IMG/VR virus record: IMGVR_UViG_3300049436_000157
Coordinates: 1 to 56,970 of that record
Length of the DNA: 56,970 bases
Reading direction: 5' to 3' (one strand)
Source: a virus
Lineage: Duplodnaviria; Caudoviricetes
Shown here: positions 1-52,300 of the stretch, piece by piece
How positions within the stretch are numbered: the stretch's first letter is position 1
Layout: each line of letters starts with the position of its first letter
Position numbers and translations under genes: made by a program
Notes under the pieces: generated by a model
Seen by the model: the letters and a program-made list of their open reading frames with translations, nothing else
Databases searched by the model: none
What the model was told of the DNA's origin: nothing

Positions 1-798
1 TCACTCATCTCCACCAGACGCACAACCCGTCGGTGCAGGGGACGCGCCGCAAGCGGCGCTCCCCTGACCTAGTGCGTTGTGCGTCAAAATCCGCCATGCA
101 GCCGCAGCCACTCGCGGAACCTGGGCATTTCCAAGACAGCGCAGTCTGTCCAGCCGGTCGGGAACCCCATCAACCACTCTGCCCACGTTGGGTTCACTCG
201 GCCAGTCGAGGAAGTTTTCAGCCCCTCCACTTCGGCCAACCGGCTTGCCAGTGTGTCCGCCTTGCCCCTGTGTCGGCCGCCGCATTTCCTCCCAATCGAA
301 GCGGTAAGCGTCGGCCAAAATCCAAAGCCTCTTTCTTTCGTGCGGAGCGTCGGCGTTGTCTGCGCCAACAACTCCCCATCGAGCATCAAACCCCAACTCG
401 GCCAGGTCGCCGAGAACTCGGCCCAACCCCCGAGTAGTGAGCGCTGGTGAGTTTTCCACCCACACGAATCGCGGTCGTACTTCGCCAACGATCCGCGCCA
501 TTTCCCGCCATAGGCCGCTTTCAGGCCCGTCAATCCCGGCTCCTGCTCCGGCGACGGAAATGTCCGTGCAGGGGAATCCACCGCTGACAACATGCACACT
601 CCCTGCCCAGGGCTTACCGTCGAAGGTTCGCACATCGTCCCAGATCGGGAAGGCTGGAAGCAGTCCGTCGCGCTGGCGGGCGAACAGCACGCTCCGGGCG
701 TAGGCATCAACTTCAACAGCGCAGACGGTGCGCCATCCAAGGATGGTGCCTCCCAAGATGCCTCCGCCTGCTCCTGCAAAAAGTGCCAACTCATTCAT
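1..798 (-). CDS. C5-cytosine DNA methyltransferase (alpha polypeptide), cassette 1
   Basis: Motif I LFAGAGGG, IV GGFPC, VI ENS, VIII R-x-R, X LGNAQVP. ATG at 798 with AAAGG SD. The C-terminal tail is encoded by attC1. Confidence 0.92.
   Translation of the reverse strand: MNELALFAGAGGGILGGTILGWRTVCAVEVDAYARSVLFARQRDGLLPAFPIWDDVRTFDGKPWAGSVHVVSGGFPCTDISVAGAGAGIDGPESGLWREMARIVGEVRPRFVWVENSPALTTRGLGRVLGDLAELGFDARWGVVGADNADAPHERKRLWILADAYRFDWEEMRRPTQGQGGHTGKPVGRSGGAENFLDWPSEPNVGRVVDGVPDRLDRLRCLGNAQVPRVAAAAWRILTHNALGQGSAACGASPAPTGCASGGDE
20..82 (+). repeat. attC: attC site 1 (63 bp)
   Basis: R'' GCACAAC, 5-nt spacer, L'' GGT[G]CAGG ... L' CCTGACC, 6-nt spacer, R' GTTGTGC; central GCGCCGC-AA-GCGGCGC hairpin. 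Confidence 0.9.
84..794 (-). CDS. Nested alternative-frame beta polypeptide of a two-subunit C5 methyltransferase (M.EcoHK31I-like)
   Basis: 236-aa ORF entirely inside the methyltransferase gene, starting 4 nt after its ATG (ATGAATGAG). Carries motif IX-like RVNPTWAEWLMGFPTGWTD, which the main frame lacks. Confidence 0.75.
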   Translation of the reverse strand: MSWHFLQEQAEASWEAPSLDGAPSALLKLMPTPGACCSPASATDCFQPSRSGTMCEPSTVSPGQGVCMLSAVDSPARTFPSPEQEPGLTGLKAAYGGKWRGSLAKYDRDSCGWKTHQRSLLGGWAEFSATWPSWGLMLDGELLAQTTPTLRTKERGFGFWPTLTASIGRKCGGRHRGKADTLASRLAEVEGLKTSSTGRVNPTWAEWLMGFPTGWTDCAVLEMPRFREWLRLHGGF

Positions 799-819
799 CG
801 TTACCTTTCGTCCGTTGCC

Positions 820-887
820 GCACAACAATTCGTCCAACCGTACCTCGCGCAAAAAGCGCGCGAGGCCGGTTAACTCAATCGTTAGCA
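820..887 (+). repeat. attC: attC site 2 (68 bp)
   Basis: GCACAAC-AATTC-GTCCAACC...GGTTAAC-TCAATC-GTTAGCA; closely resembles the classic 59-base-element pattern AACAATTCGTTCAAGC...GCTTAACTCAAGCGTTAG. Confidence 0.92.
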
Positions 888-1651
888 GGCAAAAGCATGT
901 CGCCCTGCACCGCCGTATCGCCAGCGCCGACTTTTGGTTCAGCGAACATTTGCTCTTGAGCCTGAGCGCCCGTCACCCTCGGCACCGCGATTCCGTGGAA
1001 ATACTCATGCTCGCGCTCAATCCCGATAAATCGCCGCCCCTCCAAGTGCGCCGCCTCGCCAGTGGTTCCGCTTCCCATGAAGCAGTCCAGAACCGTGTCG
1101 CCTGCGTTCGTGGTCAGTCGTATCAGGTGCCGCATCACGTCCACCGGCTTCTCTGCCGCGTGCGCCGTCGTCTTGCTGTTACCGGCCATCCACCGGCAGC
1201 GGTAAATGTCGCTCGCGCTCCGGTTGTCTATCTTGGCGTCTGGCATCCCGGCAAAAAGCACAACCTCGTAAGTCGGGCGCAGTTGGCGCGGCCCTGCTGG
1301 TCCGATCCATTCCTTGTCCCAAATCATCAGCGAGTCCACTTGCCATTTCACCTTAGCAAACGCATAGAGCAGTGTTGGCAGGCTGCGCCAGTTTCCGAAG
1401 ACACAGGCAAACCCATCTTGCTTCAGTGCGCGCCGCGCCAGCTTCAGCCATTCGGCGTACCACCAGGCGCTATTTTCCATGTCAGCCCATCCGCCAGCTT
1501 TCGCGCTTGCGTCGCCGGTCGAGATTGCGCCAATCATGTAGGGCGGGTCGGTTATCACCGCGTCCACGCTCATCGGCGGCAACTCCGCCATCACTTCCAG
1601 GCAGTCGCCTTGCCACAGTTCAGCGTTCCCGATTGTCACTTTCTCAGCCAT
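875..1651 (-). CDS. N4/N6 DNA methyltransferase (beta class), cassette 2
   Basis: GDCLEV, catalytic DPPY N-terminal to H-x-x-EKP and DCFMGSGTT. GGAG SD. Stop codon lies within attC2. Confidence 0.93.
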   Translation of the reverse strand: MAEKVTIGNAELWQGDCLEVMAELPPMSVDAVITDPPYMIGAISTGDASAKAGGWADMENSAWWYAEWLKLARRALKQDGFACVFGNWRSLPTLLYAFAKVKWQVDSLMIWDKEWIGPAGPRQLRPTYEVVLFAGMPDAKIDNRSASDIYRCRWMAGNSKTTAHAAEKPVDVMRHLIRLTTNAGDTVLDCFMGSGTTGEAAHLEGRRFIGIEREHEYFHGIAVPRVTGAQAQEQMFAEPKVGAGDTAVQGDMLLPAND

Positions 1652-1676
1652 CGTCACTCCGTAGTTACCGTTTGCC

Positions 1677-1746
1677 TGCTAACCCATCATTCCAGGGGAC
1701 GCTGCGCGATAAAGCCGCGCATCGCCCCTGAATTCAGGCGTTGTGC
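1677..1746 (+). repeat. attC: attC site 3 (70 bp)
   Basis: TGCTAAC-CCATC-ATT[C]CAGG...CCTGAAT-TCAGGC-GTTGTGC. Confidence 0.92.
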
Positions 1747-2300
1747 GTCTTGCACTTCGCTGCCAGCTCTACCAGCCATTGCGCCAGCTCGGGCGGTGTG
1801 TGCTCTCGTTCGGCCTTTGTGATGTGCGGCCGGTAGTCGTGTCGCTTCCGGCTTTGCACCACATAGGCCGCCTCGCCCATCACGTAGGGCAGCGGCGGTA
1901 TGTCGCCCGGCTCGCACCCCACCACGTAGAACCACGTCGCCTTTTCGGCTTTGTGGCCCCACCACTTCTGCGGCGCGGCCAGTGTCCACCCGCCGTATTG
2001 GTCGCGCTCGCCCGGCATCGGCAGCTTCTGCGCCGGCCAGAGCGTCGAGCCTGCCGGGTGCTCAAGCACGCCGCCAAACTCCCGCACCAGCGCCACCGCA
2101 AGCCGCGCCAGGTTCATCTCGTCGGGTCGTGGCCGTGCGAACGTGCGCAGCCGGCCCCACGCCCTGCAAGGCGGGTGCGCCACTACCGGGCAACCTCCGG
2201 GCCAGCGCCTGGCGTCCCTCTCAGCGTCCCACACGTCCACGCCGGCCAGTGCCTTGTAGTGGCTATCTGCGCGGGCGAAAAGTACTGCAACCGTCATCAC
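1734..2300 (-). CDS. Divergent C5-methyltransferase-like protein, cassette 3
   Basis: VVAHPPC (motif IV-like), VLEHP (VI-like), Q-x-WWGH-x-x-x-KAT (VIII-like), REHTP-x-x-LA (X-like). Canonical FxGxGG is absent. Stop lies within attC3. Confidence 0.6.
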   Translation of the reverse strand: MMTVAVLFARADSHYKALAGVDVWDAERDARRWPGGCPVVAHPPCRAWGRLRTFARPRPDEMNLARLAVALVREFGGVLEHPAGSTLWPAQKLPMPGERDQYGGWTLAAPQKWWGHKAEKATWFYVVGCEPGDIPPLPYVMGEAAYVVQSRKRHDYRPHITKAEREHTPPELAQWLVELAAKCKTHNA

Positions 2301-2770
2301 TCATCTCCACCAGACGCACAACCCGTCGGTGCAGGGGACGCGCCGCAAGCGGCGCTCCCCTGACCTAGTGCGTTGGGCGTCGTCAGCGTGATCCAGCCCC
2401 GTTGCTCTGCGCTGTCGTCGATCCGTCCTTCGTGTCCGATCAGAAGCGCCGCGTCGTTCGCCATGCGCTCTGTGCATTCGTTCTCCACGGCCGGGATGTT
2501 CGGAAGCCAGAAGAACAGCGCATCCTTCAGCCGTTGGTTTTCGGCGCGCAGTTCGTGGTTTGCTTGGTCCTTCTTCGCGTACAGGTCGGCGTCCTTGTTC
2601 GCTTGGGTCAGCGCGTCCCGAAAATCTTCAACAGCGCGGTCGCCGGACTTCACGAGCGCCAGCAGTGCGCCGGCCAAGCTCTCAGCGTCTTCGCGCCGAA
2701 TGAACGATCCATCCTCGCGCTGGTGCATGCTTCCAGGGTATGCGCTGTCGTATGCCTCAATCGTTTTCAC
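2297..2770 (-). CDS. Hypothetical coiled-coil phage protein, cassette 4
   Basis: GTG at 2770 after GGAAGGG. Reads through attC4; its stop overlaps the start of the next gene. Confidence 0.75.
   Translation of the reverse strand: MKTIEAYDSAYPGSMHQREDGSFIRREDAESLAGALLALVKSGDRAVEDFRDALTQANKDADLYAKKDQANHELRAENQRLKDALFFWLPNIPAVENECTERMANDAALLIGHEGRIDDSAEQRGWITLTTPNALGQGSAACGASPAPTGCASGGDE
2316..2378 (+). repeat. attC: attC site 4 (63 bp; same sequence family as attC1 and attC7)
   Basis: GCACAAC-CCGTC-GGT[G]CAGG...CCTGACC-TAGTGC-GTTGGGC. Positions 2297-2375 are identical to 1-79. Confidence 0.9.
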
Positions 2771-2795
2771 GTCGTTTCCCTTCCGGGCGTCCGCC

Positions 2796-2865
2796 GCCCA
2801 ACTCTGCATTCGAGCGGGACTGGCCGCATAAGGCCGCGTCCATCCCCTCAATTTGACTGTTGGGC
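2796..2865 (+). repeat. attC: attC site 5 (70 bp)
   Basis: GCCCAAC-TCTGC-ATT[C]GAGC...CCTCAAT-TTGACT-GTTGGGC. Confidence 0.9.
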
Positions 2866-2869
2866 CTCA

Positions 2870-3097
2870 TTAGTGCGGCATCCTGAATTCGCATGCCGGC
2901 GGGTTTGCCGCAATGTCCGCCAGTGCGCTTTCCAGCCATCCGCGCACGAACTCGTCTCCCTCGGTGGTCCGCAGCAGGTTGTAGCCGGCCAACATCAGCG
3001 CCCCGAGTGCGTCCGACTTCTCGCGCTTCGTTGGCAATTTGTGCATCAGCGCCCCGAGCATGTCGAGCGCCAGCTTGGCAATCTGGTCTTCATTCAT
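2870..3097 (-). CDS. Small hypothetical protein (75 aa), cassette 5
   Basis: GAGGA SD and ATG; helical composition; fills the 325-bp cassette. Confidence 0.8.
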   Translation of the reverse strand: MNEDQIAKLALDMLGALMHKLPTKREKSDALGALMLAGYNLLRTTEGDEFVRGWLESALADIAANPPACEFRMPH

Positions 3098-3125
3098 TTC
3101 GCGTTCCTCTCTTGTTCCGTCTGAG

Positions 3126-3190
3126 GCCCAACAACCGCATCGAGCGGACCGGGCGAAAAGCGGCCCGGCCCCTCATGCGGAGCGTTATAC
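3126..3190 (+). repeat. attC: attC site 6 (65 bp)
   Basis: GCCCAAC-AACCG-CAT[C]GAGC...CCTCATG-CGGAGC-GTTATAC. Confidence 0.9.
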
Positions 3191-3194
3191 GTCT

Positions 3195-3941
3195 TCATGC
3201 CGCTATCACCATTTGCACGGCTTGCGGCTCCCAAAACGTCGTCGCCTGGTGGCTCTCGATCCGCTCACGCATCACCAGCGCCCTGCATTCCTTGCTTGCT
3301 GGCGTGTAGGTGCCGCGCCAGGCCGAATAAATTCCCACGTTCTGCGCGATATTGGTGCTGTCCGCGCTGGCGAACGGCAACCGCGAGAACACATCCGGGT
3401 TCAACATCCGCAGGCCATGCAACTTGCAAACCGGGTTTCCGTTCTTGTCACACACGGCGTTCATGGCTTCGGCGATCCGGTCCCACCATCGTGCATTGCC
3501 AACGGTGGCGTACTGGCCGCTGCTGCCGAGACAGACCCGCTGCCACTCCCGCGCAAGACGCCGTAGCCGATCAATAGATTCGTGCATGTGCCAGACTGGG
3601 GCACCGACCCATCGAGATACCGCATCGACCCAAGGCCATTCAGCCAGCAACTCATCATTGGCTTTCTCATCGCCATCAATCACGTCCGGGATAACTGCAA
3701 AGTCAAAAGACGGGTATCGGTGCAACTCGGCCACCCAAGCGTAATAGCGGCTCCAGTCCGTTACCGGCTCGCCGCTTTTCCACGCCGAGAAAGCGCCGTT
3801 ATCCACCGCGAAGGACTGGCAAACCTCAAGCACAAGTCCCAACTGGTCGGGGTAGCGGAAGGACACAAACGAATGCCCTCCGCTCACTGCGGCGCGAGCT
3901 GCTGTCGCTGGCGTTATCGGTAGGCCGTGGTAGTGGATCAT
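3195..3941 (-). CDS. TGT/DpdA-like (tRNA-guanine transglycosylase-fold) phage protein, cassette 6
   Basis: Start MIHYHG at 3941 (ATGA overlap). Motifs DNGAFS, IPDVI, PVWH, LHGL and SADST resemble TGT-fold DSGxF / HxxG / SxDS motifs. Confidence 0.6.
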   Translation of the reverse strand: MIHYHGLPITPATAARAAVSGGHSFVSFRYPDQLGLVLEVCQSFAVDNGAFSAWKSGEPVTDWSRYYAWVAELHRYPSFDFAVIPDVIDGDEKANDELLAEWPWVDAVSRWVGAPVWHMHESIDRLRRLAREWQRVCLGSSGQYATVGNARWWDRIAEAMNAVCDKNGNPVCKLHGLRMLNPDVFSRLPFASADSTNIAQNVGIYSAWRGTYTPASKECRALVMRERIESHQATTFWEPQAVQMVIAA

Positions 3942-4213
3942 TTGCGCTCCGTGGTCGCAGCCGTATAACCCGTCGGTGCAGGGGACGCGCCGCAAGCGGC
4001 GCTCCCCTGACCTATGGCGTTGGCAGGCAATGGCCGCCATCCCTGCGGCTCGCCATACATGCCGTGCCACGTCCACCCGCCGCCGTTGAAGTCGATCCAT
4101 GTCGCCTCGACAACCTGCTCCCACTGTCGCTTTTCCACGCCCTTTGCGTACTGTCGGTACGGGTGGTGCATCAGCATGTGGATCACCGTTCCATCCTTGG
4201 GTGCCGTTTCCAT
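3938..4213 (-). CDS. DUF551-like phage protein; C-terminus extended through attC7
   Basis: (EWRP)METAPKDG ... P-x-GWRPLP family signature. Start uncertain, because the conserved WRP lies upstream of the only ATG. Confidence 0.7.
   Translation of the reverse strand: METAPKDGTVIHMLMHHPYRQYAKGVEKRQWEQVVEATWIDFNGGGWTWHGMYGEPQGWRPLPANAIGQGSAACGASPAPTGYTAATTERK
3963..4025 (+). repeat. attC: attC site 7 (63 bp)
   Basis: GTATAAC-CCGTC-GGT[G]CAGG...CCTGACC-TATGGC-GTTGGCA. Confidence 0.9.
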
Positions 4214-4265
4214 CGGGCGCCATTCCGTATCGGCTGTTGATTGAGCCTGCTGGAGAAGGGTGTCC

Positions 4266-4607
4266 TTACGCGGTCTTGAGGTTGGCGGTGGTGATGTCGG
4301 TCGTGCTGGGGATGCTCTTCAGGTCGAGCTTGGTCTGGCGCGGATCGTCGGCGACAAGGTGGCCTTCCGGGGTGGCGAACAGCATCGCCTCCATGGGCTC
4401 TTCGGCCGGCTTGGTGAGTTTGACGTTGCCGGTGATGTGCATGGCGCCTCCTCGGGTGGCTTTCTTCACCTTGATTTCGATGACCAGCTTGCCGGCCTTC
4501 CCGCTGCCGTCGACGGCGCTGACCAGTTCGGCCATCTTGTCGCTGGCGGTGTCGATGAAGATCCCGCCGCCGATGTGGCGCAGGGTGTCGGTGATGGGTT
4601 TGCTCAT
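4266..4607 (-). CDS. Hypothetical phage early protein
   Basis: AGGAG SD, start MSKPITDTL, strong GC3 bias. Confidence 0.8.
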   Translation of the reverse strand: MSKPITDTLRHIGGGIFIDTASDKMAELVSAVDGSGKAGKLVIEIKVKKATRGGAMHITGNVKLTKPAEEPMEAMLFATPEGHLVADDPRQTKLDLKSIPSTTDITTANLKTA

Positions 4608-4641
4608 GGCTTCTTCTCCTTCTGGGTGGGTAGTGCTGCCG

Positions 4642-6369
4642 TTAGGCAGCGGCTTGGTAGTGGCTGATCTCGCCCCGTTCCATCCAGAACGCCTGGAAGG
4701 TGTCACCGGGCAGCGTCGGCAGGCCCTTCAGGGTGGCGAAGATCAGGGCCGTGTCGATCTCTCCGGCGGTGGCCAGTCCGTGGAGCCAGCGCAGGAGGGT
4801 GGACCGGTTGCCCATGTCCAGCACATCCATCCGGTCCAGGGCGATCAGGCTCAGGCCGGATACGTGGGCGATGGCCTCGGCCAGGGACGCATCGGCCCGC
4901 CAGCGGGCGGACTCGCTGCACAGGCTGTAGAGCCTGCCGCCGATGCGCACGCTCATGTCGGGATCCACGGCAACCTGTGCCCATCCGGTGGCCGAGGCGG
5001 TAGCGCGCAGCCGGTCGTTGAACGGCTTGATGGCATCTGACAGCAGTTCGCCCGGGATGCCATCCGGAGCCAAGGCGTCGGCGATCTTGAGCCAATCCTT
5101 CAGGTGCTGGTGGTTCTCGGCAGCGGCCCGGGTCTTCTTGTCGGCGGCGGTTGCCTTGCGCTGGGCATCTTCGACGAGACGGATGGCCGCCTGGTGGTTG
5201 GCCGCTTCGTGCTTGAGGTTGGCGATCGAGCTTTCCAGGTCGGCGATCATCTCGGCGGTGACCGTATCCGGCGTGGCCTCGATCTCCTGGAGGGAGGCCG
5301 CGGCGGCCTTGGCTTGCTCCAGGTCGCGCTCTCCGTTGGCCACGGAGCGCACCATGACTTCCAGCGCCCGTTCGTACTCGGGCAGGGCTTCGCGTGCCTC
5401 CGGGTCTGCCTTCTGGGCCGGCGCTTCGTATTCGACCAGAGCGCCGTCGGCGTGCCGGTGCATGAGGATGGATCCGCAGCTCGGGCAGGTGTAGGACGGA
5501 GGGGTTTCGGTGCTTCCGGAGGCCTTCGCCCGGGTGGCTTCCACCTTGGCCTGCCACTCGGCCATGTCGCCCCGGTCCTTCTCAAGCTTGGCGGTGATTC
5601 TGCCGATATTGCCGGCCTGCTCCTGGAGCCCGGCCACCTTGGCGCGACGCTCGTCCTGCTGGCGCTTCATCGCCCGGAGTTCGCCCATACGCTCCGTGTC
5701 GGCGGATATGCGCTCATTCGCGGCAGCCAGGGCCGCCTTGGTTTCGTCCAGGCCGGTGGTGTCGATCGCCGGCTTTTCCGCTTTCCAGGTCTCGGCCTTC
5801 TTTTCGCCGTAGGTCTCGCCGGTGATCTGCTTCCAGGCGCCGCGGCACTCGGTCGCCTTGGTCTTGGCATAGTCATGGGCGGCCGGGAAGCCTGAGACCA
5901 GCAGCGGGGCAACGGCTTCCGCCTTGTCGGCCGAGCAGCCGCGGTCGATCATCTTCTGCCGGATGGCTTTGGGCGCGGCAGAGGATCCGGTCAGGGCAAA
6001 GAGCATGCTGCGGCGCTCGTTGTCCTCGAGGCTGGCGAAGCGCGGCGGATCCAGCACGAATGGCAGGGCGCCGTGGATCGGGTCGCCGCTCATCGTGCGC
6101 TTGCCATCCGGCAGGGTGATGGCCACCTCGCCGGCGGTGTGCTTGATCAGGACCGATGCCGCCTTGGCGCCGTCTCGGACCAGCGCGGGGTAGTCCTTCT
6201 TCAGCTTGACGCGGACCACCTCGCCGGTCATGGCCAGGCGGATGGCCTCCTGCATGCTGGTCTTCCCCTGCTCGTTGCCGCCGGCCACCAGGACGACGGG
6301 CCGGTCGATGGCCAGTCCGATGTCGGTGATGGCCTGGAAGTTCTGGATGTTGATGGCGGTGATCTTCAC
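4642..6369 (-). CDS. Rad50/SbcC-like ABC ATPase
   Basis: IQNFQ, Walker A GGNEQGKTS, coiled coils around a CPSC zinc hook, LCSES signature, Walker B LIALD. Confidence 0.88.
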   Translation of the reverse strand: MKITAINIQNFQAITDIGLAIDRPVVLVAGGNEQGKTSMQEAIRLAMTGEVVRVKLKKDYPALVRDGAKAASVLIKHTAGEVAITLPDGKRTMSGDPIHGALPFVLDPPRFASLEDNERRSMLFALTGSSAAPKAIRQKMIDRGCSADKAEAVAPLLVSGFPAAHDYAKTKATECRGAWKQITGETYGEKKAETWKAEKPAIDTTGLDETKAALAAANERISADTERMGELRAMKRQQDERRAKVAGLQEQAGNIGRITAKLEKDRGDMAEWQAKVEATRAKASGSTETPPSYTCPSCGSILMHRHADGALVEYEAPAQKADPEAREALPEYERALEVMVRSVANGERDLEQAKAAAASLQEIEATPDTVTAEMIADLESSIANLKHEAANHQAAIRLVEDAQRKATAADKKTRAAAENHQHLKDWLKIADALAPDGIPGELLSDAIKPFNDRLRATASATGWAQVAVDPDMSVRIGGRLYSLCSESARWRADASLAEAIAHVSGLSLIALDRMDVLDMGNRSTLLRWLHGLATAGEIDTALIFATLKGLPTLPGDTFQAFWMERGEISHYQAAA

Positions 6370-6613: not shown

Positions 6614-7780
6614 CTATTCCGCCTGGAACATATCGCTGCCACCGGTGCCGGCCGGCTTGGCATTGGCGATGGACACGTTGATCTGACGCTGCTGGTTCTC
6701 CGGCAGGCCGCGGGCGATGTCCCGGGCCATATCGAAGTCGCCGGACTTGACGGCCGACATGGCGTCGTCGAAGGTTGGGGCGCCAGAAGCTGCGCGTACT
6801 GAAGAAACCTCGGCGCTTACCGTCCCTACAGAAACCGTTTCCGCGTCTGCTTCGATGTGGGTGGTCACCGTTTCAACCTCCTGATGCTCCAGCGCAGGAG
6901 GTTCGGCGCCTTCCTCGAACACTTGGCTGATGGTGGCCGGGTCGGCCATGGCGGAAAAATCGACGGCCCGCTCGTCCAGCTGGCTTGCGATGGCGATAGG
7001 GTCGTTTGATGCCAGCGGAAGCCTCGAGTTGATGATCTTCTTGATCACCGTCTTGCTTGCCATGGTGTCCTCGTGCATCACCCATGGCGTGTCGGCGAGT
7101 TTCTGCGCGGCCTTGGCGCGGTCCTTGTCGCTGTCGGCTTGATCGACGGCGCGAACCAGTGAGTTGTAGGTTTCGGACTTGGAGCGCGCCTTGTAGATTT
7201 CGTCGAGCGGCAGGGTCAGGGCTACCTCGTTGCCGTTCTTCATCTTGATGAGGCAGTAGGCGCCGACCAGCGGTCCACGGTCCTTGAGGGCCTTCCTGAA
7301 CCGGACCAGGCCGGTGCTACCCTGCATGTGCTCGAATTCGTCTCGTTCGTGGATCGCCTCGGCCTCGAGGGACGCTACGTTTGGACTGCGGTAGGCCAGG
7401 GTGATGAATCCCTTGTAGCCGATCTGGAATTGGCACTCGGTTCCGATGACGCCCCATTTTCCGTTCGGCAGCTTGCCGCGCTTGTCGTAGGGGATCAGGT
7501 ACGCCTGCCCGGCCGGCGTGTTGGGCTCAAGTCCAAGGGCGGCGGCGGCCATGAACGCACCGAGCACGCTCTGCGGGTCGCACTGGGCGAGCTTCGGGGT
7601 CTTGCGGATCGCATTGACGCAGAGCGCCAGCATGCGGTCTCCGGTCATGTAGCGGCCGGCCATGGCCGTCATCTGCTTCTTGGTCTTCTCGGCGCCGAGC
7701 AATTGCAGGATATTGGCCCGAGGCTGGCTTGCTGCTGGTGTGCCCCCTTCCTTCAGGGTGGCGATGTTGGTCGCGCTCAT
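6614..7780 (-). CDS. recT: RecT-family single-strand annealing protein
   Basis: PKLAQCDPQS...LGLEP...GQAYLIPY...QFQIGYKG...MASKTVIK. Confidence 0.93.
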   Translation of the reverse strand: MSATNIATLKEGGTPAASQPRANILQLLGAEKTKKQMTAMAGRYMTGDRMLALCVNAIRKTPKLAQCDPQSVLGAFMAAAALGLEPNTPAGQAYLIPYDKRGKLPNGKWGVIGTECQFQIGYKGFITLAYRSPNVASLEAEAIHERDEFEHMQGSTGLVRFRKALKDRGPLVGAYCLIKMKNGNEVALTLPLDEIYKARSKSETYNSLVRAVDQADSDKDRAKAAQKLADTPWVMHEDTMASKTVIKKIINSRLPLASNDPIAIASQLDERAVDFSAMADPATISQVFEEGAEPPALEHQEVETVTTHIEADAETVSVGTVSAEVSSVRAASGAPTFDDAMSAVKSGDFDMARDIARGLPENQQRQINVSIANAKPAGTGGSDMFQAE

Positions 7781-46392: not shown

Positions 46393-49300
46393 ATGGCTCG
46401 ATACGAGATCACTTCTCCCGACGGGCGCCGGTTCGAGGTAACGGCGCCCGACGACGCCGGCCAGGACGATGTTCTGGCCTACGCCCAATCGAATTTCGGC
46501 AGCAAAGATCAGGACGGTGGTGGGCGCTCCGTTCTCGATGTCGTTTCGGCCGGTATCCACGGAATCGTTGACGATGTGCGCGGCGGAATATCCAGGATCG
46601 ACGCCAGGCGGCGCGAGGAATCGATTGCTCGCAGCAATGCGGCCAATCAAGAAATGCTGGCCACCAGCAGAGCATCCGGAACCTCTGCTGAACTCGAGCG
46701 TCAGGCGTTGGCCAAAGACGCGGCAGCCAGGTACCAAAATGATCCGGTGAAGCGCGGAATCGACTTCGGCCGTGATCTTGCATTGAGCAGTGCGCAAGGG
46801 GTAGTCGGACTAGGCGAGGCGGCCGTCGGTATCGGCGATCTGGCCACCGGCTGGACCGGATATACGCCGGGCCAGGCGCTGAAGGATACCGTTGGGTACG
46901 ATCCAGAGCGCACCAAGTCTTCGATCATTGGCGACCTGAAGAGCGATTCCGGCAAGGCCCGGGATGCAATCTACCAGGGCACCAAGGGATTCACCGAGAC
47001 ACTGCTGACCCTGGGCGCCGATCCGGCAATGCTGGCCGACAAGATCACCGAGTCGCTGGCGGGAACGGTTGGGGCTGGCGCCATCGGCGGCAAGGTGGTG
47101 CAGATGGCGCTGCCCAGGGTCACAGCTGCCGCGTCGGCGGCCGGGTTGTCTGGGGCCGAAGCCGAGGCCTTTATTGCCGACCGCCTGGCCAAGATCGCCA
47201 TTGGTGCCTCTGCTGGTGCGGAAGGGGCGCAGCAGGCTGGCAACCTCGCGGAGACAGCGCGCCAAGGGGGGAAGTCTTGGCGTGACTACGCGCTGCCGGC
47301 CATTGCCTCCGGGATTGGCACGGGCGCCATTGCCGCCGGTTCTGGCGCCTTGGCCAAGAAGATCGGTATCGGCGACATCGAATCGGACATTGCCCTGCGC
47401 GGGCAGCGGCCGGGCCTCAAGACTGACCATGGGTTCGCCGTGAATCGTGCCGCCATCGAGGGCATCAAAGAGGGTTCCCTGGAGGAGATGCCGCAGTCCG
47501 TCCAGGAATCGGCCTGGGAGAACGTCGCCATGGGGCGGCCGTGGGACGAGGGGCTGGGCAAGGCTGCGGCCTCTGGCCTGGCAACTGGCGCAGGAATGGG
47601 TGGCGGTCACGCCGCGGTCAGCCGGCCATCGGAGTCAGTACCATCCGAGCCGCTGGCAAATACCGCAGGCGGGGGTAATGCAATCCATGCGGGTGATGTG
47701 CTCGGCTCGCCGGTGGTTGAGGCTTCGCCGGGAGCGGGTAGTGCGCCGGCGGTGGCCGCCGTGCCGACGGAATCCGACAAGGCGCTCTACACGCCCAAGA
47801 GCCTGACGGCCCTCGACAGGGTTCAGGAAATCGACATGCGCCTGGCGGCGCCCGATCTTGCCCAGGGCGAGGCCCAGTCGCTGAGCGCGGAACGGGACGG
47901 AATCACGGCGTCCTGGCCCACGGCAACGCCAGGCGTGCCCACGTCCTTTTCCACGGAGACCGGAGCCCGCATCAACGGCCAGTACGCCCTGATGGAAGCC
48001 GGAGACCTGACCACTTCCCACGACGAGAACCTGCGGCCGGTCGGCACGTACCCGGTGGAGCTTCAGCCCCGCGAGCGGGAACGCCATGCCTCGGAGATGC
48101 AGGTCCAGCAGATCGTCGGCAAACTGGATCCGGCCCGGCTGGGCGAATCGGCAGACGCCGCCACCGGCGCGCCGATCGTTGGTGCCGACGGGCTGGTGGA
48201 ATCCGGAAACGCCCGGACCATTGCCCTGAAGCGCGTCTACCAGGCCAACGGCCAGAAGGCGCTCGACTACCGGCAGTTCCTGAAGGACAACGCCGGGCGC
48301 TTCGGTATCACACCAGAATCCGTCGATGCCCTGCAGAAGCCTGTGCTGGTGCGGGTGCGCAGCACCCCGGTGAATCGGGCCGAGTTCGCGCGCCAGGCCA
48401 ACGCCTCGACCGTGGCGCGCATGAGCCCGTCCGAGCAGGCGAGGTCCGACGCCGCGGCGATCGACAGCCTGGACGACCTGAACCCGGACGACGCGGGAGA
48501 TTTCACGTCCGGAAGCTCGCGGCCGTTTATCCGCCGCTTCCTGGCCAAGTTGCCAGGCACCGAGCAGGCCGGCATGATCGACGCCGGCGGGCAACTCTCC
48601 CAGGCCGGCTATGCGCGGATCCGCAATGCGGTGCTGGCCAAGGCCTACGGCGACTCGCCAGTGCTGCTGCGCATGGTGGAAAGCCTCGACAACAACCTGC
48701 GCAACGTCACGGCCGGCCTGATGCGCGTGGCTCCCCAGGTGGCCAAGGCCCGCGAGGCCATCGCCGATGGCGCCCTGTTCGATGCCGACATCACCCAGGA
48801 TCTGATGGCCGCCGTCGAGGAGCTGGCGACCTTGCGCGACAAGGGCACCTCGGTGGCCGACTACCTGGCGCAGTCCAGCATGTTCGGCGACAGCCTGTCG
48901 CCGGAGGGCCGCGAGCTTCTGATGTTCCTCGCGGACAATATCCGCAGTCCCCGGCGCATCGCCGAATTCATCCAAGCATACCTTGAAGCCCTGACGGCCG
49001 CCGGCAACCCGGCCCAGGGCTCCGTGTTCGGCGAGCAGCAGGCGCCGGCCAAGGCCGATCTCATGGCTGCCGCTGCAAGGAGTCAAGGCGATGCCAAGCA
49101 ACCAGGATCCACTGATGCCGGTCAAGTTGCCGGGAACCAAGGCGCTATTGGACAAGGTGAAGGCCAGCCCGCGAATCAGGCAGGCGATCCGCGCGGCGCT
49201 CAAGGCGATGCGGGCGCCAGCGAATGGGTAGCCTTCCCGCCTGAGAGCGGCACGCTCGGCATCCCCCGGGCGGACATGCCACAGATCAAGGGCGAGCACC

Positions 49301-52300
49301 GTGGCGCGTTGATACAGTTCCTGGCTGGGCAGGGGATCACCCACGAGACCGTGGAGATGACGGCCGACCAATTGAAGCCGACCCAGGCCGAGTTTTCCAC
49401 CAAGAAGGCGGAGGGTTGGAAGGAGGTCCGCGAGGGTTCCGACCGATCTGTGCTGGCCTCGTCGGACGGGTACATCCTGGATGGCCATCACCAGTGGGTG
49501 GCCGCGCTGGCCCAGGGAGAGACCGAGAAGGTGATCCTGTTCAATGCGCCGATCCGGGAACTGCTGGCGGCGACGTACCAATTCCCGAGCGCCAAGCGGT
49601 CAGATGGCGCAACGGTGTCGGAACTGAGATCCAAGTCGCGCCAGGACTTCAAGGACGCGCTGGCAGACCTCGCTCAGATTGCGACCCGCCACACCCGGGC
49701 GGCGATGATGCCCGAGGACACGCCGAACCTGATGCCTACCTTGGTTCGTCTATTCGACGCCGGCATCAAGGAGGTTGGCTACGGCCTCCAGGATCTGATT
49801 GCCTACGTGAAGAAGGCGCTACGCGCCGACGAGAAGCTCAGGACGTTCTGGAACAAGATCGACAACGCGACCTATCGCAAGGCCGCGAAGCAGGCGATAG
49901 ACCAGGAGAGCACGCAGCGCGTTGATGACCTGTTCGCCGCGGCCACGTCACGCAAAGAAGACATCGGCGAGACCGGAAATGAGCCCAAGGGGGATGTCTC
50001 CAATAGCGACCAGCAGGCAGCGGAGACGGATGGTTCGGAAGTCTATCTCAGCGAGAACCTTTCCCAGGAGTCTAGGCAAGGTAAGGAAACGCCTGGAACT
50101 TTAAATAGCGGAGACGCTACCGAGTCAGGCACAACCACAGACGCTGTGGCAGAAGCGAACTCCCCGATCGAGATCATCCAGAGGGTGGCGAAGTCCCGGC
50201 CGTTCGATAAGTTCGATGAGGTCCGGTCATCGGCCTTCGACCAATTGCGAGAGAAGACCGGGAAGGATGCTGCCGACCACGATGAATTGCGCGGGTCCAT
50301 GATGCGCGATCCGGTGGCAGAGGCTATCCACGAGGGGCAGTTTCAGGGGCAAGTCGAGTACGCGAAAACCCTGCCGGTACACATCTCGCCGACGGCTATC
50401 TCCATGCACGATGCGGCGGCAGCCTTCAGTGGAACCTCTCATTCTCCCGAGCAGAGAGGCGCCGGAGTTCGGCGCGGGCTGTTCCAGGACCTGCTATCGC
50501 TCTGGCGGATGTTCGAAGTCAAGTACCAGGCCACTGACGCCCAGAAACAAGCCGAATTCGCAAAGGCCTTCGACGATGTGGCAGCGCGCTACACGGACCT
50601 GACGCGGGCCTATCTCGCTTCACACGGGCGCGTCATGTCGGCCATGATTGTTGGGCCGGCGAGGTTCCCGGTGGCCGCCAACCTGAAGCGCTCTGATGCA
50701 GCCAGCCGCCGGGCGCAGGACGCCAGTGACTACCTGGCCAAGGCGCCGCGCATGCTCGAGCGTGTGCTGCATGGTGCCACGGACAATTCAGTGTCGTCCC
50801 AACTGGCCGAGGCCAGGCAGAAACTAGCCGAACGCGAGAAGCTGCAGGAGACCATGAAGGCCGCCAACGCAGCCATCAGAAAGGGCGATGATGAGGCCCT
50901 GCGGGGGCTTGGGTTTGACGATGACCGGATCGCTCAGCTCAAGAAGCCGGACTTCTCCGGACGACGCGGATTTGCCGACTATCATCTTGCCAACAACAAC
51001 GCCGAGATCAAGCGCATCCGCCAGCGCGTGGAAGACTTGCAGGCCCGCGCCGCGGAGGCGGATGCCGAAACGGAGTCGGGTCGGCAGGTAGCACCTGGTG
51101 TGCGCATGGTCAAGAACACCCAGGACAACCGGCTGCAGCTGTTCTTCGATGGCAAGCCGGCAGATGATGTCCGAGCAGACCTTCGGGCGAATGGGTTCAA
51201 GTGGGCGCCATCGGTATCTGCTTGGCAGCGGCAGTTGACCGCGAACGCCATCTCATCCGCAGAGCGCATTGTCGGTAAGCACTTCGGAACGACTGATGAT
51301 GCCGGCGCCGATGTGGCGCCCGTGTCATTCTTGGCGCGGAGTGGTGACGATGCCTCCGGCCCTGCACTGGCCATCGGTCGTGAGAACGCGGAATCCGTGG
51401 TCAACGACGTCAGAACGTCTTTCGGCCCGGATGCTCGCTTCCAATTGCATCTGGTGGAGTCGTTCGATGCGCTTCCGGCGGATGCGCAGCAGGATGCCCG
51501 CGACCAAGGCGGAAACGAGCGCAACACCAAGGGCCTCATTCATCGTGACGGTTCAATCTGGGTGATCCGGACGAACCATTCTACCGCCGCTGATCTGGAG
51601 GAAACCGTACTCCATGAACTGCGCGGCCACCTGGGAACGCGCAAGCTGTTCGGTAGGTCGTTCGTGACTCAGCTCAACAACCTCTTTGATCGGCTCGGTG
51701 GATGGGGTGGGTTGAAGACGCTGGCCAGGAAGTATGGCGAACAGGATGCGATCGAGACCTACCGGAAGTCACTCTTCATTCCCGGAAAGGCGCCTGACTG
51801 GGATCTGGAGGTGAAGATAGCGGTGCTGACCGACGAGTTGATGGCGCGTATCGCTCAACGTCGTCCCTCCATTGCCACGACGATGAAGGAGATCATCGGA
51901 GGAATCCGTCACGCTCTCCGCAAGCATGGGCTGGCTCAGCTTGCCGATTATGGCGACACGGATCTGGCCTACCTGATCAAGCGTGGAACCGAGGCGCTGC
52001 GCAATCCGGAAACGCCGGGCGGATACACGGTGTTGAACCGAGACACGAATCCGCGACGCGGACCTACCGGAGAAGATATTGAGAAAATCCGGTCTCGCTT
52101 CTCATGGAACGCCACCGGAAAGAACGAGACCGGCCCCATGTTCTCTGGCGAATCTTTCTCTCTGGAGCCTGTAACGAAAGTCGAATTCGGTTCAGACGTC
52201 ACGGACTTTCCTGAAAGCGGGGAATGGCCTCTTGGCCATGCCCGAGCTGTCGAAAATTCGGATGGAGTCTTCTGGTTCGAGATTCGTGACAGGTCAGACG

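What the first reader, a model, noticed from the sequence alone, without database searches (positions are those of the whole stretch)
76..4019. Each cassette's two ends are complementary to each other: evidence of real circular intermediates
Seen, left R' versus own R'' extension: C1 GTTGTGCG (8 bp, 11/12 extended); C2 GTTAGCAGGCAAA / TTTGCCTGCTAAC (13 bp perfect); C3 GTTGTGCGTCT (11 bp); C4 GTTGGGCG (8 bp); C5 GTTGGGCCTCA (11 bp); C6 GTTATACG (8 bp). In the linear array, attC2, 3, 4, 6 and 7 have mismatched R''/R' pairs (e.g. GCACAAC/GTTAGCA). Established: in integrated cassettes the R' after G|TT comes from the next cassette. Inference: 6/6 matches mean these units were inserted as circles by site-specific recombination and are not terminators or REP elements. 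The lack of decay suggests recent activity.
Basis: partly seen in the sequence, partly recalled or inferred. Interest (0 to 1): 0.88.

Follow-up and report, generated by a model that had tools for sequence, protein, structure and literature searches.

The report
Phage-borne integron cassettes, genes reversed
Six small mobile gene cassettes of the integron type, carrying DNA-modification genes, sit at the end of a prophage's early operon; their matching ends are the textbook mark of insertion by site-specific recombination, but their genes lie backwards relative to ordinary integron cassettes.

Summary
Seven attC-like hairpin sites (17-4028, all on the + strand) delimit six units of 805, 859, 632, 487, 325 and 835 bp. 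The 8-13 nt after each GTT pair with the arm before the next AAC. Only 1 of 720 pairings gives this fit. The rule holds in related arrays: 54 of 69 unique cassettes against 5.8% of non-cognate pairs.

This is the known signature of integron cassettes, in which the R' box is a chimera made by exchange at G|TT. The principle is not new. Circles are inferred, not seen; contigs of four runs showed no junction.

What is unusual:
- The array lies in a P22-like prophage and carries phage-type cargo: C5 and N6 DNA methyltransferases, a DpdA-like protein and phrog_12600.
- Every gene confirmed by homology lies antisense to the canonical attC top strand. An aadA1/R100 control fixes that orientation.
- The record has no integrase, but it is cut inside the array.
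- 59 IMG/VR contigs hold a genuine IntI. In the closest one the order is phage int, intI, three cassettes (one 87% identical to C3's protein), then phrog_204, as in the window.

Verdict: a new variant of a known kind, a phage integron with mirror-oriented cassettes.

The parts
1..76 (+). End of a seventh cassette (C0) cut by the start of the record: the gene start on the minus strand plus its attC up to the G of R'
   Evidence: 1-85 matches 2297-2381 at 99%, so this is a second copy of the end of C3.
17..85 (+). attC site 1 (R'' 20-26 GCACAAC; R' 76-82 GTTGTGC)
   Evidence: Model R1 scores 87.1 bits on + and 35.4 on -. The hairpin has bulged bases on the 5' arm.
77..881 (+). Cassette C1, 805 bp. 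Cargo on the minus strand: C5 cytosine DNA methyltransferase (ORF 1-798)
   Evidence: PF00145 at 1.6e-24 and phrog_363 at 3.4e-56. The ends match over 8 nt, 11 of 12 extended.
817..890 (+). attC site 2 (R'' 820-826; R' 881-887 GTTAGCA)
   Evidence: R1 scores 68.8 bits on + and 17.6 on -. R''/R' within the site match over the 3 nt GTT only.
882..1740 (+). Cassette C2, 859 bp. Cargo on the minus strand: N6/N4 DNA methyltransferase (875-1657)
   Evidence: PF01555 at 6.4e-39 and phrog_67 at 5.5e-62. The ends are 13 nt perfect.
1674..1749 (+). attC site 3 (R'' 1677-1683 TGCTAAC; R' 1740-1746)
   Evidence: R1 scores 71.2 bits on + and 20.8 on -.
1741..2372 (+). Cassette C3, 632 bp. Cargo on the minus strand: phrog_12600 protein of unknown function (1734-2300)
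   Evidence: phrog_12600 at 1.7e-70. The ends match over 11 nt. An 87%-identical protein lies in the cassette array next to intI in G009.
2313..2381 (+). attC site 4 (R'' 2316-2322; R' 2372-2378 GTTGGGC)
   Evidence: R1 scores 87.2 bits on + and 35.3 on -.
2373..2859 (+). Cassette C4, 487 bp. Minus-strand ORF 2297-2770 of unknown function, open through attC site 4
   Evidence: ORF list. Only a weak phrog_25267 hit at 1.4e-4. The ends match over 8 nt.
2793..2868 (+). attC site 5 (R'' 2796-2802; R' 2859-2865)
   Evidence: R1 scores 61 bits on +.
2860..3184 (+). Cassette C5, 325 bp. Minus-strand ORF 2870-3097 (75 aa), no family
   Evidence: Codon-position GC points to the minus strand. The ends match over 11 nt.
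3123..3193 (+). attC site 6 (R'' 3126-3132; R' 3184-3190 GTTATAC)
   Evidence: R1 scores 66.8 bits on + and 20.9 on -.
3185..4019 (+). Cassette C6, 835 bp. Cargo on the minus strand: DpdA-like / queuine tRNA-ribosyltransferase-like protein (3195-3941)
   Evidence: phrog_887 at 2.2e-75. The ends match over 8 nt.
3960..4028 (+). attC site 7, the last site of the array (R'' 3963-3969; R' 4019-4025 GTTGGCA)
   Evidence: R1 scores 80.2 bits on + and 27 on -. No further site in the window except one weak hit at E 0.45.
3938..4607 (-). First phage genes beyond the array, on the same strand as the cassette genes: 91-aa ORF 3938-4213 and phrog_204 protein 4266-4607. An SbcC-like ATPase (4642-6369) and RecT (6614-7780) follow.
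   Evidence: A phrog_204 homologue (72% identical) holds the same place beside the array in G009.

Best explanation
Positions 1-4028 are the distal part of an integron cassette array carried inside a temperate, P22-like phage.

Seven attC hairpin sites, whose canonical top strand is the + strand, separate six complete cassettes and the end of a seventh. Each site in the linear array is a chimera. Its R''-L''-loop-L'-G belongs to the cassette on its left, and the TTRRRY with what follows belongs to the cassette on its right. This arises because an integron integrase exchanges the folded bottom strand (here the minus strand) between A and C of AAC, which is G|TT on the + strand. That is why the two ends of each unit pair with each other while the two ends of most sites do not.

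The cargo is phage counter-restriction equipment: two orphan DNA methyltransferases, a DpdA-like protein, and small unknowns.

Unlike ordinary cassettes, each ORF lies antisense to its attC top strand. Its start codon sits next to its own R''. The array is therefore read from the phage early-left operon (RecT, SbcC-like, phrog_204) through the cassettes towards attI and intI.

Shown: the sites, the chimerism, the crossover point, the linkage of each attC to the gene on its left, the antisense ORFs, and the phage setting.

Inferred: the integrase is the phage's own IntI, lying just beyond the left end of the record. Free circles are the intermediate. Transcription comes from the phage early promoter.
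For: Sites. A covariance model of the seven sites finds only these seven in 56,970 bp at E below 0.01, all on +. The folds show single-base bulges on the 5' arm of the + strand.

Orientation control. The same model hits the attC of aadA1 in plasmid R100 on the strand of aadA1 (40 bits against 5.5) and opposite to intI1.

Chimerism:
- In the window, 1 of 720 pairings reaches the observed fit.
- In array G001, 11 of 12 cassettes match over at least 4 nt beyond GTT, and 0 of 100,000 shuffles reach the total.
- Over 40 loci with 127 sites, 54 of 69 unique cassettes match, against 267 of 4,592 non-cognate pairs.

The unit of movement. I examined 40 occurrences of the identical 38-nt interior.
- They fall into 17 left-flank clusters and 35 right-flank clusters.
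- 109 pairs have the same left and a different right flank; 1 pair is the reverse.
- L005 equals L004 plus one 345-bp TT...G unit, with 621 identical nt to the left and 200 of 200 to the right.

Antisense genes.
- Pfam and PHROG hits for four window genes lie on the minus strand.
- Four more lie on the antisense strand in other arrays.
- 11 of 12 tblastn hits of window cassette proteins in IntI loci run with intI and lie upstream of it.
- Codon-position GC gives 27 antisense against 3 sense among the strongly periodic cassettes, and 15 against 2 in IntI-linked arrays.

Phage setting.
- RecT, an SbcC-like ATPase, a P22-type portal and a MuF/ddrB-ParB giant protein are in the window.
- In G002/G003/G005 a mini-array lies between the terminase and the portal.

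IntI nearby in relatives.
- 59 IMG/VR loci carry IntI relatives.
- 7 of 7 tested score 450-479 bits against the TIGR02249 cut-off of 265.
- 87 of 89 attC hits lie upstream of intI on the opposite strand.
- G009 reads phage int, intI, three cassettes (one encoding an 87%-identical phrog_12600 protein), then phrog_204.
Against: - No tyrosine recombinase of any kind is in the record, so the recombinase for this array is unseen.
- No circle or cassette-skipping junction was seen. Only assembled contigs were available, which is inconclusive.
- 15 of 69 related cassettes match over fewer than 4 nt beyond GTT, as do 14 of 40 in IntI-linked arrays.
- The codon-position method is about 80% accurate on 300-nt pieces (43 of 54). 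It miscalls the window's own C1. It gives 21 of 67 and 13 of 40 sense calls when weakly periodic cassettes are included.
- The window's phage shares only two genes with G009.
- No close relative of the window's phage was found.
- The record is labelled a provirus, so its left boundary is a software call and the array could in principle lie outside the phage.
Confidence: 0.8

Rival explanations
1. The array is an inert fossil, a CALIN. The cassettes were once inserted by an integron integrase, but this phage has no integrase acting on them now, and the end complementarity is only a historical trace.
For: No integrase is in the record. No junction reads were found. The same linear order was seen in contig pieces of four other runs. 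CALINs without an integrase are known in phages (Qi et al. 2023, PMC9892861, section 3.4 read).
Against: The record is cut inside the array. Related phages have an intact IntI at the matching place. The copy of C3's end differs at 1 of 85 positions. Cassette presence or absence differs between near-identical phage contigs.
Confidence: 0.2
2. The array is part of a host chromosomal integron that lies beside the prophage and was swept into the provirus call. It is not phage DNA.
For: The record is a software-delimited provirus whose left edge falls in the array. Chromosomal integrons are common in Proteobacteria (recalled).
Against: The cassette genes match phage families (phrog_363, 67, 12600, 887). 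They are contiguous and co-directional with the phage early genes. In G009 the integron lies between the phage integrase and the early genes. In G011, 100% complete by CheckV's estimate, intI lies about 13 kb into a 42.7-kb contig. In G002/G003/G005 the sites lie between the terminase and the portal.
Confidence: 0.07
3. The cassettes are ordinary (gene followed by its own attC, read on the minus strand). Exchange happens at the other end of each site, so nothing is inverted.
For: End complementarity fits this reading equally well (a logical consequence). Stop codons of genes 2 and others fall in the adjacent site, as in many ordinary cassettes.
Against: The bulged bases are on the wrong arm for that reading. 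The model's strand agrees with aadA1 and with the intI geometry. The attC interior travels with the gene whose start faces it: 109 pairs against 1. The indel boundaries are TT...G on the + strand. Variant junctions (GAT or AAT in place of GTT) occur only at the R' end.
Confidence: 0.03
4. The hairpins are transcription terminators or REP-like palindromes, and the matching ends are chance or plain hairpin symmetry.
For: They are G+C-rich intergenic hairpins with z-scores of -1.5 to -6.3.
Against: No T run follows any site. Within-site arms are mismatched in 5 of 7 sites, while the between-site pairing is unique among 720 permutations. The model matches a proven attC. There are no Rfam matches.
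Confidence: 0.01

Closest known systems
Gene cassettes of mobile integrons (example: aadA1 in In2/Tn21 on plasmid R100)
   Same: The sites share the attC anatomy: an AAC...GTT frame, bulged bases on the R''/L'' arm, 5- and 6-nt spacers, and a length of 63-70 nt. The model built here scores the aadA1 attC at 40 bits. The crossover is at G|TT. R' is a chimera, so the start of a cassette pairs with its own R''. That principle is recalled from Hall and Stokes, 1991-1997, and was not seen in a call. The bottom-strand mechanism comes from passages of Nivina et al. 2016 (PMC5027507).
   Different: The ORF lies antisense to the attC top strand, and no Pc-type expression is possible. The cargo is phage DNA-modification genes, not resistance genes. 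The carrier is a phage.
Integrons and CALINs in phage genomes (Qi, Rajabal, Ghaly, Tetu, Gillings 2023, Front Microbiol, PMC9892861)
   Same: attC clusters lie inside phage genomes. Orphan DNA methyltransferases are among the cargo (five in that study). Phage attC sites are recombined by IntI1. I read sections 3.1, 3.3 and 3.4.
   Different: That study found 17 CALINs and a few complete integrons, mostly captured pieces of host or class 1 integrons. Here an IntI lineage recurs in 59 IMG/VR contigs. In three of them (L070, L091, L105) a second, phage-type integrase lies within about 3 kb of intI, and in G009 one lies beside it.
Sedentary chromosomal integrons with occasional inverted cassettes (Vibrio cholerae superintegron)
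   Same: They have long arrays of similar attC sites, and a minority of cassettes (toxin-antitoxin pairs) carry genes in reverse with their own promoters (recalled). The strand that carries the folded bottom strand controls the excision rate (passages of PMC13108822).
   Different: Here reversal is the rule, not the exception. No promoter-like site lies in the array (0 found against 1.0 expected).
'Inverted integrase' integrons (Treponema denticola type; recalled, no call)
   Same: intI and the cassette ORFs point the same way.
   Different: There intI itself is turned, so that it reads towards the array. Here intI keeps the usual divergent place next to attI (its start codon faces the array). 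It is the ORFs that are turned, reading towards intI.
Accessory 'ea/b' (moron) region of lambdoid phages between the recombination genes and int (recalled)
   Same: It holds the same place in the genome and the same kind of dispensable cargo, transcribed with the early-left operon.
   Different: Here the region is built from attC-bounded units that a dedicated recombinase can swap.

Membership tests
Integron attC site (59-base element) | Inverse core ...AAC at one end and core GTT... at the other (consensus RYYYAAC / GTTRRRY) | tested here: met
   AAC and GTT are present in 7 of 7 sites. The four degenerate positions fit only partly; for example GCACAAC has A where Y is expected.
Integron attC site (59-base element) | Imperfect hairpin with extrahelical bases on the R''/L'' arm and unequal spacers (unpaired central spacer) | tested here: met
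   DNA folds show one to three single-base bulges on the 5' arm of the + strand in all six distinct sites folded (site 4 has the same interior as site 1). The spacers are 5 nt on the left and 6 nt on the right.
Integron attC site (59-base element) | Likeness to an experimentally proven attC | tested here: met
   Model R1 finds the aadA1 attC of R100 at 40 bits, E 3.3e-9, on the strand of aadA1.
Integron attC site (59-base element) | Recombined by an integron integrase | not testable with these tools
   This needs an attC x attI or attC x attC assay. Only the footprint of exchange at G|TT is seen.
Integron gene cassette | R' of each site belongs to the next cassette, so the two ends of a cassette are complementary | tested here: met
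   6 of 6 in the window, with 1 of 720 permutations reaching the fit. 54 of 69 unique cassettes in related arrays.
Integron gene cassette | The unit occurs in different contexts and orders | tested here: met
   One gene-plus-attC unit has 15 different right neighbours. A one-cassette indel separates L004 and L005. A copy of C3's end lies at 1-85.
Integron gene cassette | Promoterless ORF on the attC top strand, followed by its attC | tested here: not met
   The ORFs lie on the opposite strand, with the start codon facing their own R''.
Integron gene cassette | Free circular intermediate | tested here: inconclusive
   Only Logan contigs could be laid. There was no junction at G|TT, and contigs cannot show absence.
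Complete integron (intI, attI, Pc, array) | Integron integrase next to the array | tested here: not met
   The 56,970-bp record has no TIGR02249 or PF00589 match, but the record is cut inside the array. The feature is met in relatives: 7 of 7 IntI above the cut-off, and 34 of 59 IntI loci have attC hits.
Complete integron (intI, attI, Pc, array) | Pc promoter near attI reading into the cassette ORFs | tested here: not met
   The ORFs point towards the attI side, so a Pc would give antisense RNA. No sigma-70-like site lies in 1-4700.
CALIN (cluster of attC sites lacking an integrase) | Two or more attC sites with no intI nearby | tested here: inconclusive
   The feature is formally met within the record, but the left end of the array is missing.
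Intrinsic terminator / REP-type repeat | Hairpin followed by a T run, or a plain palindrome whose own two arms match | tested here: not met
   None of the 5 terminator-like hits lies at a site. The outer arms are mismatched in 5 of 7 sites.

The most novel reading that the evidence does not exclude
A lineage of temperate phages owns a complete, working integron built as a mirror image of the bacterial one. The cassette ORFs lie on the recombinogenic bottom strand and are read from the phage early-left promoter through the array into intI and then the phage int. Infection or induction would then do two things at once. It would express an exchangeable counter-restriction arsenal (orphan methyltransferases, DpdA and others). 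By making the bottom strand the non-template strand, it would also expose the attC hairpins for shuffling. Because these cassettes would be silent if captured at a bacterial attI, phages and bacteria would share the recombination chemistry but keep separate cassette pools.
Probability: 0.4. Interest if true: 0.85.

Novelty: new variant of a known kind. Interest (0 to 1): 0.66.

Why it matters
Integrons are known as bacterial devices, lately shown to store anti-phage defence genes. Phage-borne attC clusters have been reported only as rare finds.

Here the same machinery appears on the phage side in a recurrent form. 59 IMG/VR contigs hold a genuine IntI, and the window's attC type turned up in 34 metagenome loci. 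The cargo is DNA-modification genes that defeat restriction.

The gene orientation breaks the rule that the integron model rests on, namely expression from Pc in the 'correct' orientation. If this holds, it gives a testable case of how a phage swaps counter-defence genes as modules. It also offers a natural experiment on what attC strand choice and transcription direction do to cassette dynamics.

Tried and rejected
- Terminator or REP reading: rejected.
- Ordinary orientation, with the gene followed by its own attC on the minus strand: considered seriously, because end complementarity fits it equally well. Rejected.
- Longest-ORF comparison to call the coding strand: uninformative at 64% G+C (28 undecided, 23 minus, 18 plus). 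Replaced by codon-position G+C with controls and by homology.
- Reads: the look-up of sequencing runs gave 24 runs, all kept as Logan contigs.
  - I laid 4 of them (X2, X4, X6, X8). Short contig pieces reproduce the window's order.
  - The three listed joints (45>910, 936>1626, 936>1681) are not at G|TT boundaries and have short sides. They probably come from other cassettes that share the ends.
  - There was no circle or skip junction. This says nothing about absence.
- Close relatives of the window's phage: none among cultured phages (one 304-nt match to a Ralstonia phage). Plasmids gave only gene-level matches. A 30-nt window pattern gave none in IMG/VR, and the SbcC-like protein gave none.
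- Rfam: no family anywhere in the window.
- Integrase hunt in the flanks of metagenome loci by Pfam: none. It found DNA polymerase A, a UvrD-like helicase and an HNH endonuclease instead.
- Literature:
  - Searches found no description of arrays whose ORFs are all antisense to attC, nor of this phage IntI lineage. The library lacks most subscription journals, and supplements were closed. Tables S1, S2 and S4 of Qi et al. 2023 may list ORF orientations that I could not see.
  - I found no open passage that states the end-complementarity principle. I cite it from memory (Hall, Brookes and Stokes 1991; Stokes et al. 1997).
  - Loot et al. 2024 on attG sites was seen only as a citation.

Full report
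WHAT IS THERE

The window is a complete IMG/VR record labelled 'provirus' (56,970 bp). I read 1-6000 and located the R'' and R' boxes.

There are seven attC-like sites: 20-82, 820-887, 1677-1746, 2316-2378, 2796-2865, 3126-3190 and 3963-4025. All have ...AAC on the left and GTT... on the right of the + strand.

A covariance model built from them (R1) finds these seven and nothing else credible in the window. Scores are 61-87 bits on + and 17-35 bits on -, with one stray hit at E 0.45.

THE OBSERVATION

- The sequence after each GTT, compared with the reverse complement of the arm before the next AAC, runs perfectly for 8, 13, 11, 8, 11 and 8 nt.
- The two ends of the same site run 10, 3, 3, 4, 7, 3 and 3 nt.
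- The unit lengths are 805, 859, 632, 487, 325 and 835 bp.
- Of the 720 possible pairings of six left ends with six right ends, only the real one reaches the observed total. Non-cognate pairs average 1.0 nt beyond GTT.
- C1 alone is not discriminating, because three sites share GTTGTGCG.

DOES IT GENERALISE

The 38-nt interior of sites 1, 4 and 7 occurs exactly in 6 loci of 5 other IMG/VR contigs, in 3 MAG contigs and in 34 metagenome loci.
- In one of the contigs (G001, 14 sites), 11 of 12 testable cassettes match over at least 4 nt beyond GTT, and 0 of 100,000 shuffles reach the total.
- Over 40 loci with 127 sites, no locus has sites on both strands.
- 76 consecutive pairs were in register, 69 of them unique.
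- 54 of the 69 match over at least 4 nt, against 267 of 4,592 non-cognate pairs. 0 of 20,000 shuffles reach the total. This set includes the window.

WHAT THE RULE MEANS, AND WHAT IT CANNOT TELL

This is the classical signature of integron cassettes. Exchange happens between G and TT of the core site, so in a linear array the last six bases of each R' come from the next cassette. A cassette's own start therefore pairs with its own inverse core. I recall this from Hall and Stokes and found no open passage that states it. The bottom-strand mechanism and the role of the extrahelical bases are in passages of Nivina et al. 2016.

The same pair of sequences flanks each gene whichever way the array is read. 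The complementarity alone therefore does not say which attC travels with which gene. This matters here, because all the genes lie on the minus strand.

ORIENTATION

Three independent lines agree that the + strand is the canonical top strand and that each attC belongs to the gene on its left.

(i) Folds. They show the single-base bulges on the 5' arm of the + strand, which is the R''/L'' arm.

(ii) Model strand.
- R1 hits the attC of aadA1 in R100 on the strand of aadA1 (40 bits against 5.5) and opposite to intI1.
- In 59 IMG/VR loci oriented by their IntI, 88 of 89 R1 hits lie on the strand opposite to intI.
- By my reading of that table, 87 of the 89 lie upstream of intI. L066 is downstream on the opposite strand, and L121 is downstream on the same strand.

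(iii) Linkage.
- Among 40 occurrences of the identical interior with both flanks readable, there are 17 kinds of left flank and 35 kinds of right flank.
- 109 pairs share the left flank and differ on the right. Only 1 pair does the reverse.
- One left gene with this attC has 15 different right neighbours, and the sequences diverge at the G|TT.
- Two contigs of one phage differ by a single 345-bp unit that starts with TT and ends with G. They have 621 identical nt on the left and 200 of 200 on the right.
- Five loci have GAT or AAT in place of GTT at this junction only. That would fit insertion at secondary sites.

THE GENES ARE BACKWARDS

Window cargo on the minus strand:
- a C5 methyltransferase (PF00145 at 1.6e-24, phrog_363);
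- an N6/N4 methyltransferase (PF01555 at 6.4e-39, phrog_67);
- a phrog_12600 protein (1.7e-70);
- a DpdA-like protein (phrog_887 at 2.2e-75);
- two small or unknown ORFs.

In other arrays, two N6_N4 methyltransferases, an MT-A70 enzyme and a weak DHH/DHHA1 protein also lie antisense to the attC model. The other six ORFs tested had no family.

Codon-position G+C was used as a strand test.
- Controls: 8 of 8 whole genes and 43 of 54 pieces of 300 nt were called on the right strand.
- In the metagenome set it cassettes antisense, 21 sense and 2 too short. With strong periodicity only, it against 3.
- It miscalls the window's C1.

No promoter-like site lies in 1-4700 (0 found against 1.0 expected). 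None of the five terminator-like hits is at a site.

PHAGE OR HOST

The array is contiguous and co-directional with a phrog_204 protein, an SbcC-like ATPase and RecT. Further on lie a P22-type portal and a giant ORF of at least 3,525 aa with ddrB-ParB and MuF_C domains.

In another phage (G002/G003/G005) a two- or three-site array lies between the large terminase and the adaptor, portal, protease and major head genes. So these sites sit inside phage genomes.

WHERE IS THE INTEGRASE

The record has none, and neither do the five viral records found first. But positions 1-85 repeat 2297-2381 at 99%, so the record is cut inside the array.

- MAG G007, which holds a contig with the same attC, has a true IntI (457 bits) in the usual divergent place. 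Its first two cassettes read towards intI; I read the RBS and ATG next to R'' in the sequence.
- The same holds in G006, beside tailspike-like and giant-protein genes.
- Searching IMG/VR with that IntI gave 59 loci at 45-90% identity.
- 7 of 7 tested score 450-479 bits against the TIGR02249 cut-off of 265. None reaches the 435 of the class 1-type equivalog.
- 34 of the 59 loci have R1 hits.
- In these arrays 26 of 40 unique cassettes obey the end rule, against 85 of 1,538 non-cognate pairs. Strand calls are 27 antisense to 13 sense, or 15 to 2 with strong periodicity.
- Window cassette proteins have 12 tblastn hits there. 11 are co-directional with intI and upstream of it. One lies 3.4 kb downstream on the other strand.
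- Three of these records are 96-100% complete by CheckV's estimate.
- A second, ordinary phage integrase lies 160 bp downstream of intI in L070, about 3 kb downstream in L091, and beside intI on the opposite strand in L105. L067 has a J-like tail protein converging.

The closest record, G009, reads phage int (PF00589), intI, three attC-bounded cassettes, a few genes, then phrog_204. The third cassette encodes a protein 87% identical to that of the window's C3. The phrog_204 protein is 72% identical. The order and strand are the same as in the window. By this collinearity the window's intI most likely lies just beyond position 1. This is inference.

MECHANISM

Shown: exchange at G|TT of folded attC-type sites, units made of an antisense gene plus the distal attC, and movement of such units between contexts.

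Inferred:
- An IntI of the phage lineage is the recombinase.
- Excision gives circles, as in the standard model. Passages of Larouche and Roy 2011 describe excision by attC x attC.
- Expression comes from the phage early-left promoter, since there is no room or signal for promoters in the array.
- With the ORFs on the bottom strand, transcription would leave the recombinogenic strand as the displaced one. This speculation is prompted by the effect of strand exposure on excision in Vibrio (passages of PMC13108822).

READS

All 24 runs offered were assembled contigs, mostly from bioreactor metagenomes. Four were laid. Their pieces reproduce the window's order and show no junction at G|TT. The summed depth over site 3 is 165-832 against 3-10 elsewhere, so that attC type is shared by many other contigs in those communities. 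Nothing can be said about circles.

NOVELTY

Phage-borne CALINs and a few phage integrons, including methyltransferase cassettes, were described by Qi et al. 2023 (sections read). The text I could read and search does not mention antisense ORFs.

Five literature searches turned up no account of arrays in which the ORFs as a rule lie antisense to attC, nor of a recurrent phage IntI lineage with a phage int beside or near intI. I therefore rate this a new variant of a known kind.

The caveats are that the library is incomplete, the supplements were closed, the window's own integrase is unseen, and the strand statistics outside the homology-confirmed genes rest on a method that is about 80% accurate.

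Noticed in passing
window 1-85 and 2297-2381: An 85-nt block (gene start, RBS, whole attC and the first bases of R') occurs twice at 99% identity. The record therefore starts inside a second copy of cassette C3.
   Followed up: partly
window 1-798, 2297-2770 and 3938-4213 (minus strand): Three ORFs have no stop before the adjacent attC (sites 1, 4, 7, which share one interior) and stay open through it. They gain the same tail (...GQGSAACGASPAPTG...). The first two end at a TGA that overlaps the start of the next gene (GTGATG), which looks like translational coupling across an attC.
   Followed up: no
window 46393-56970 (+): A giant ORF of at least 3,525 aa has a ddrB-like ParB domain (3e-34) and a MuF C-terminal domain (4.5e-9) and runs off the right end of the record. 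A stretch of about 370 aa is 47-53% identical to a gene on the integron-bearing phage-like contig G006:C6.
   Followed up: partly
loci L021, L026, L031, L032, L037, L045 (metagenome contigs): The same attC ends in G|AT or A|AT instead of G|TT and is followed by sequence that is not a cassette end. This may be insertion at secondary (attG-like) sites.
   Followed up: no
window 1585-1728 (site 3) and 865-1008, in runs X2, X4, X6, X8: Summed contig depth is 165-832 over site 3 and 10-46 over the start of C2, against 3-10 elsewhere. These end sequences are shared by many other contigs in bioreactor communities.
   Followed up: no
L052 3217-3315 (MAG G007, second cassette): A 99-nt attC holds an RBS and an ATG inside its variable loop, from which a minus-strand ORF of about 160 aa starts. 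The gene begins inside its own attC.
   Followed up: no
L007 3125-3200 (G001): One site has lost its GTT (R' reads ...TCGTGCGTCAAA), and the neighbouring cassette 3 fails the end rule. Its R' instead matches the R'' of the last site of that array over 10 nt beyond the GTT, which suggests a past rearrangement.
   Followed up: no
L012 16853-17271 / L004 793-1473 (phage G005/G003): A two- or three-site attC array sits between the large terminase (plus two small genes) and the head-tail adaptor and portal genes. That is an unusual place for accessory cargo.
   Followed up: partly
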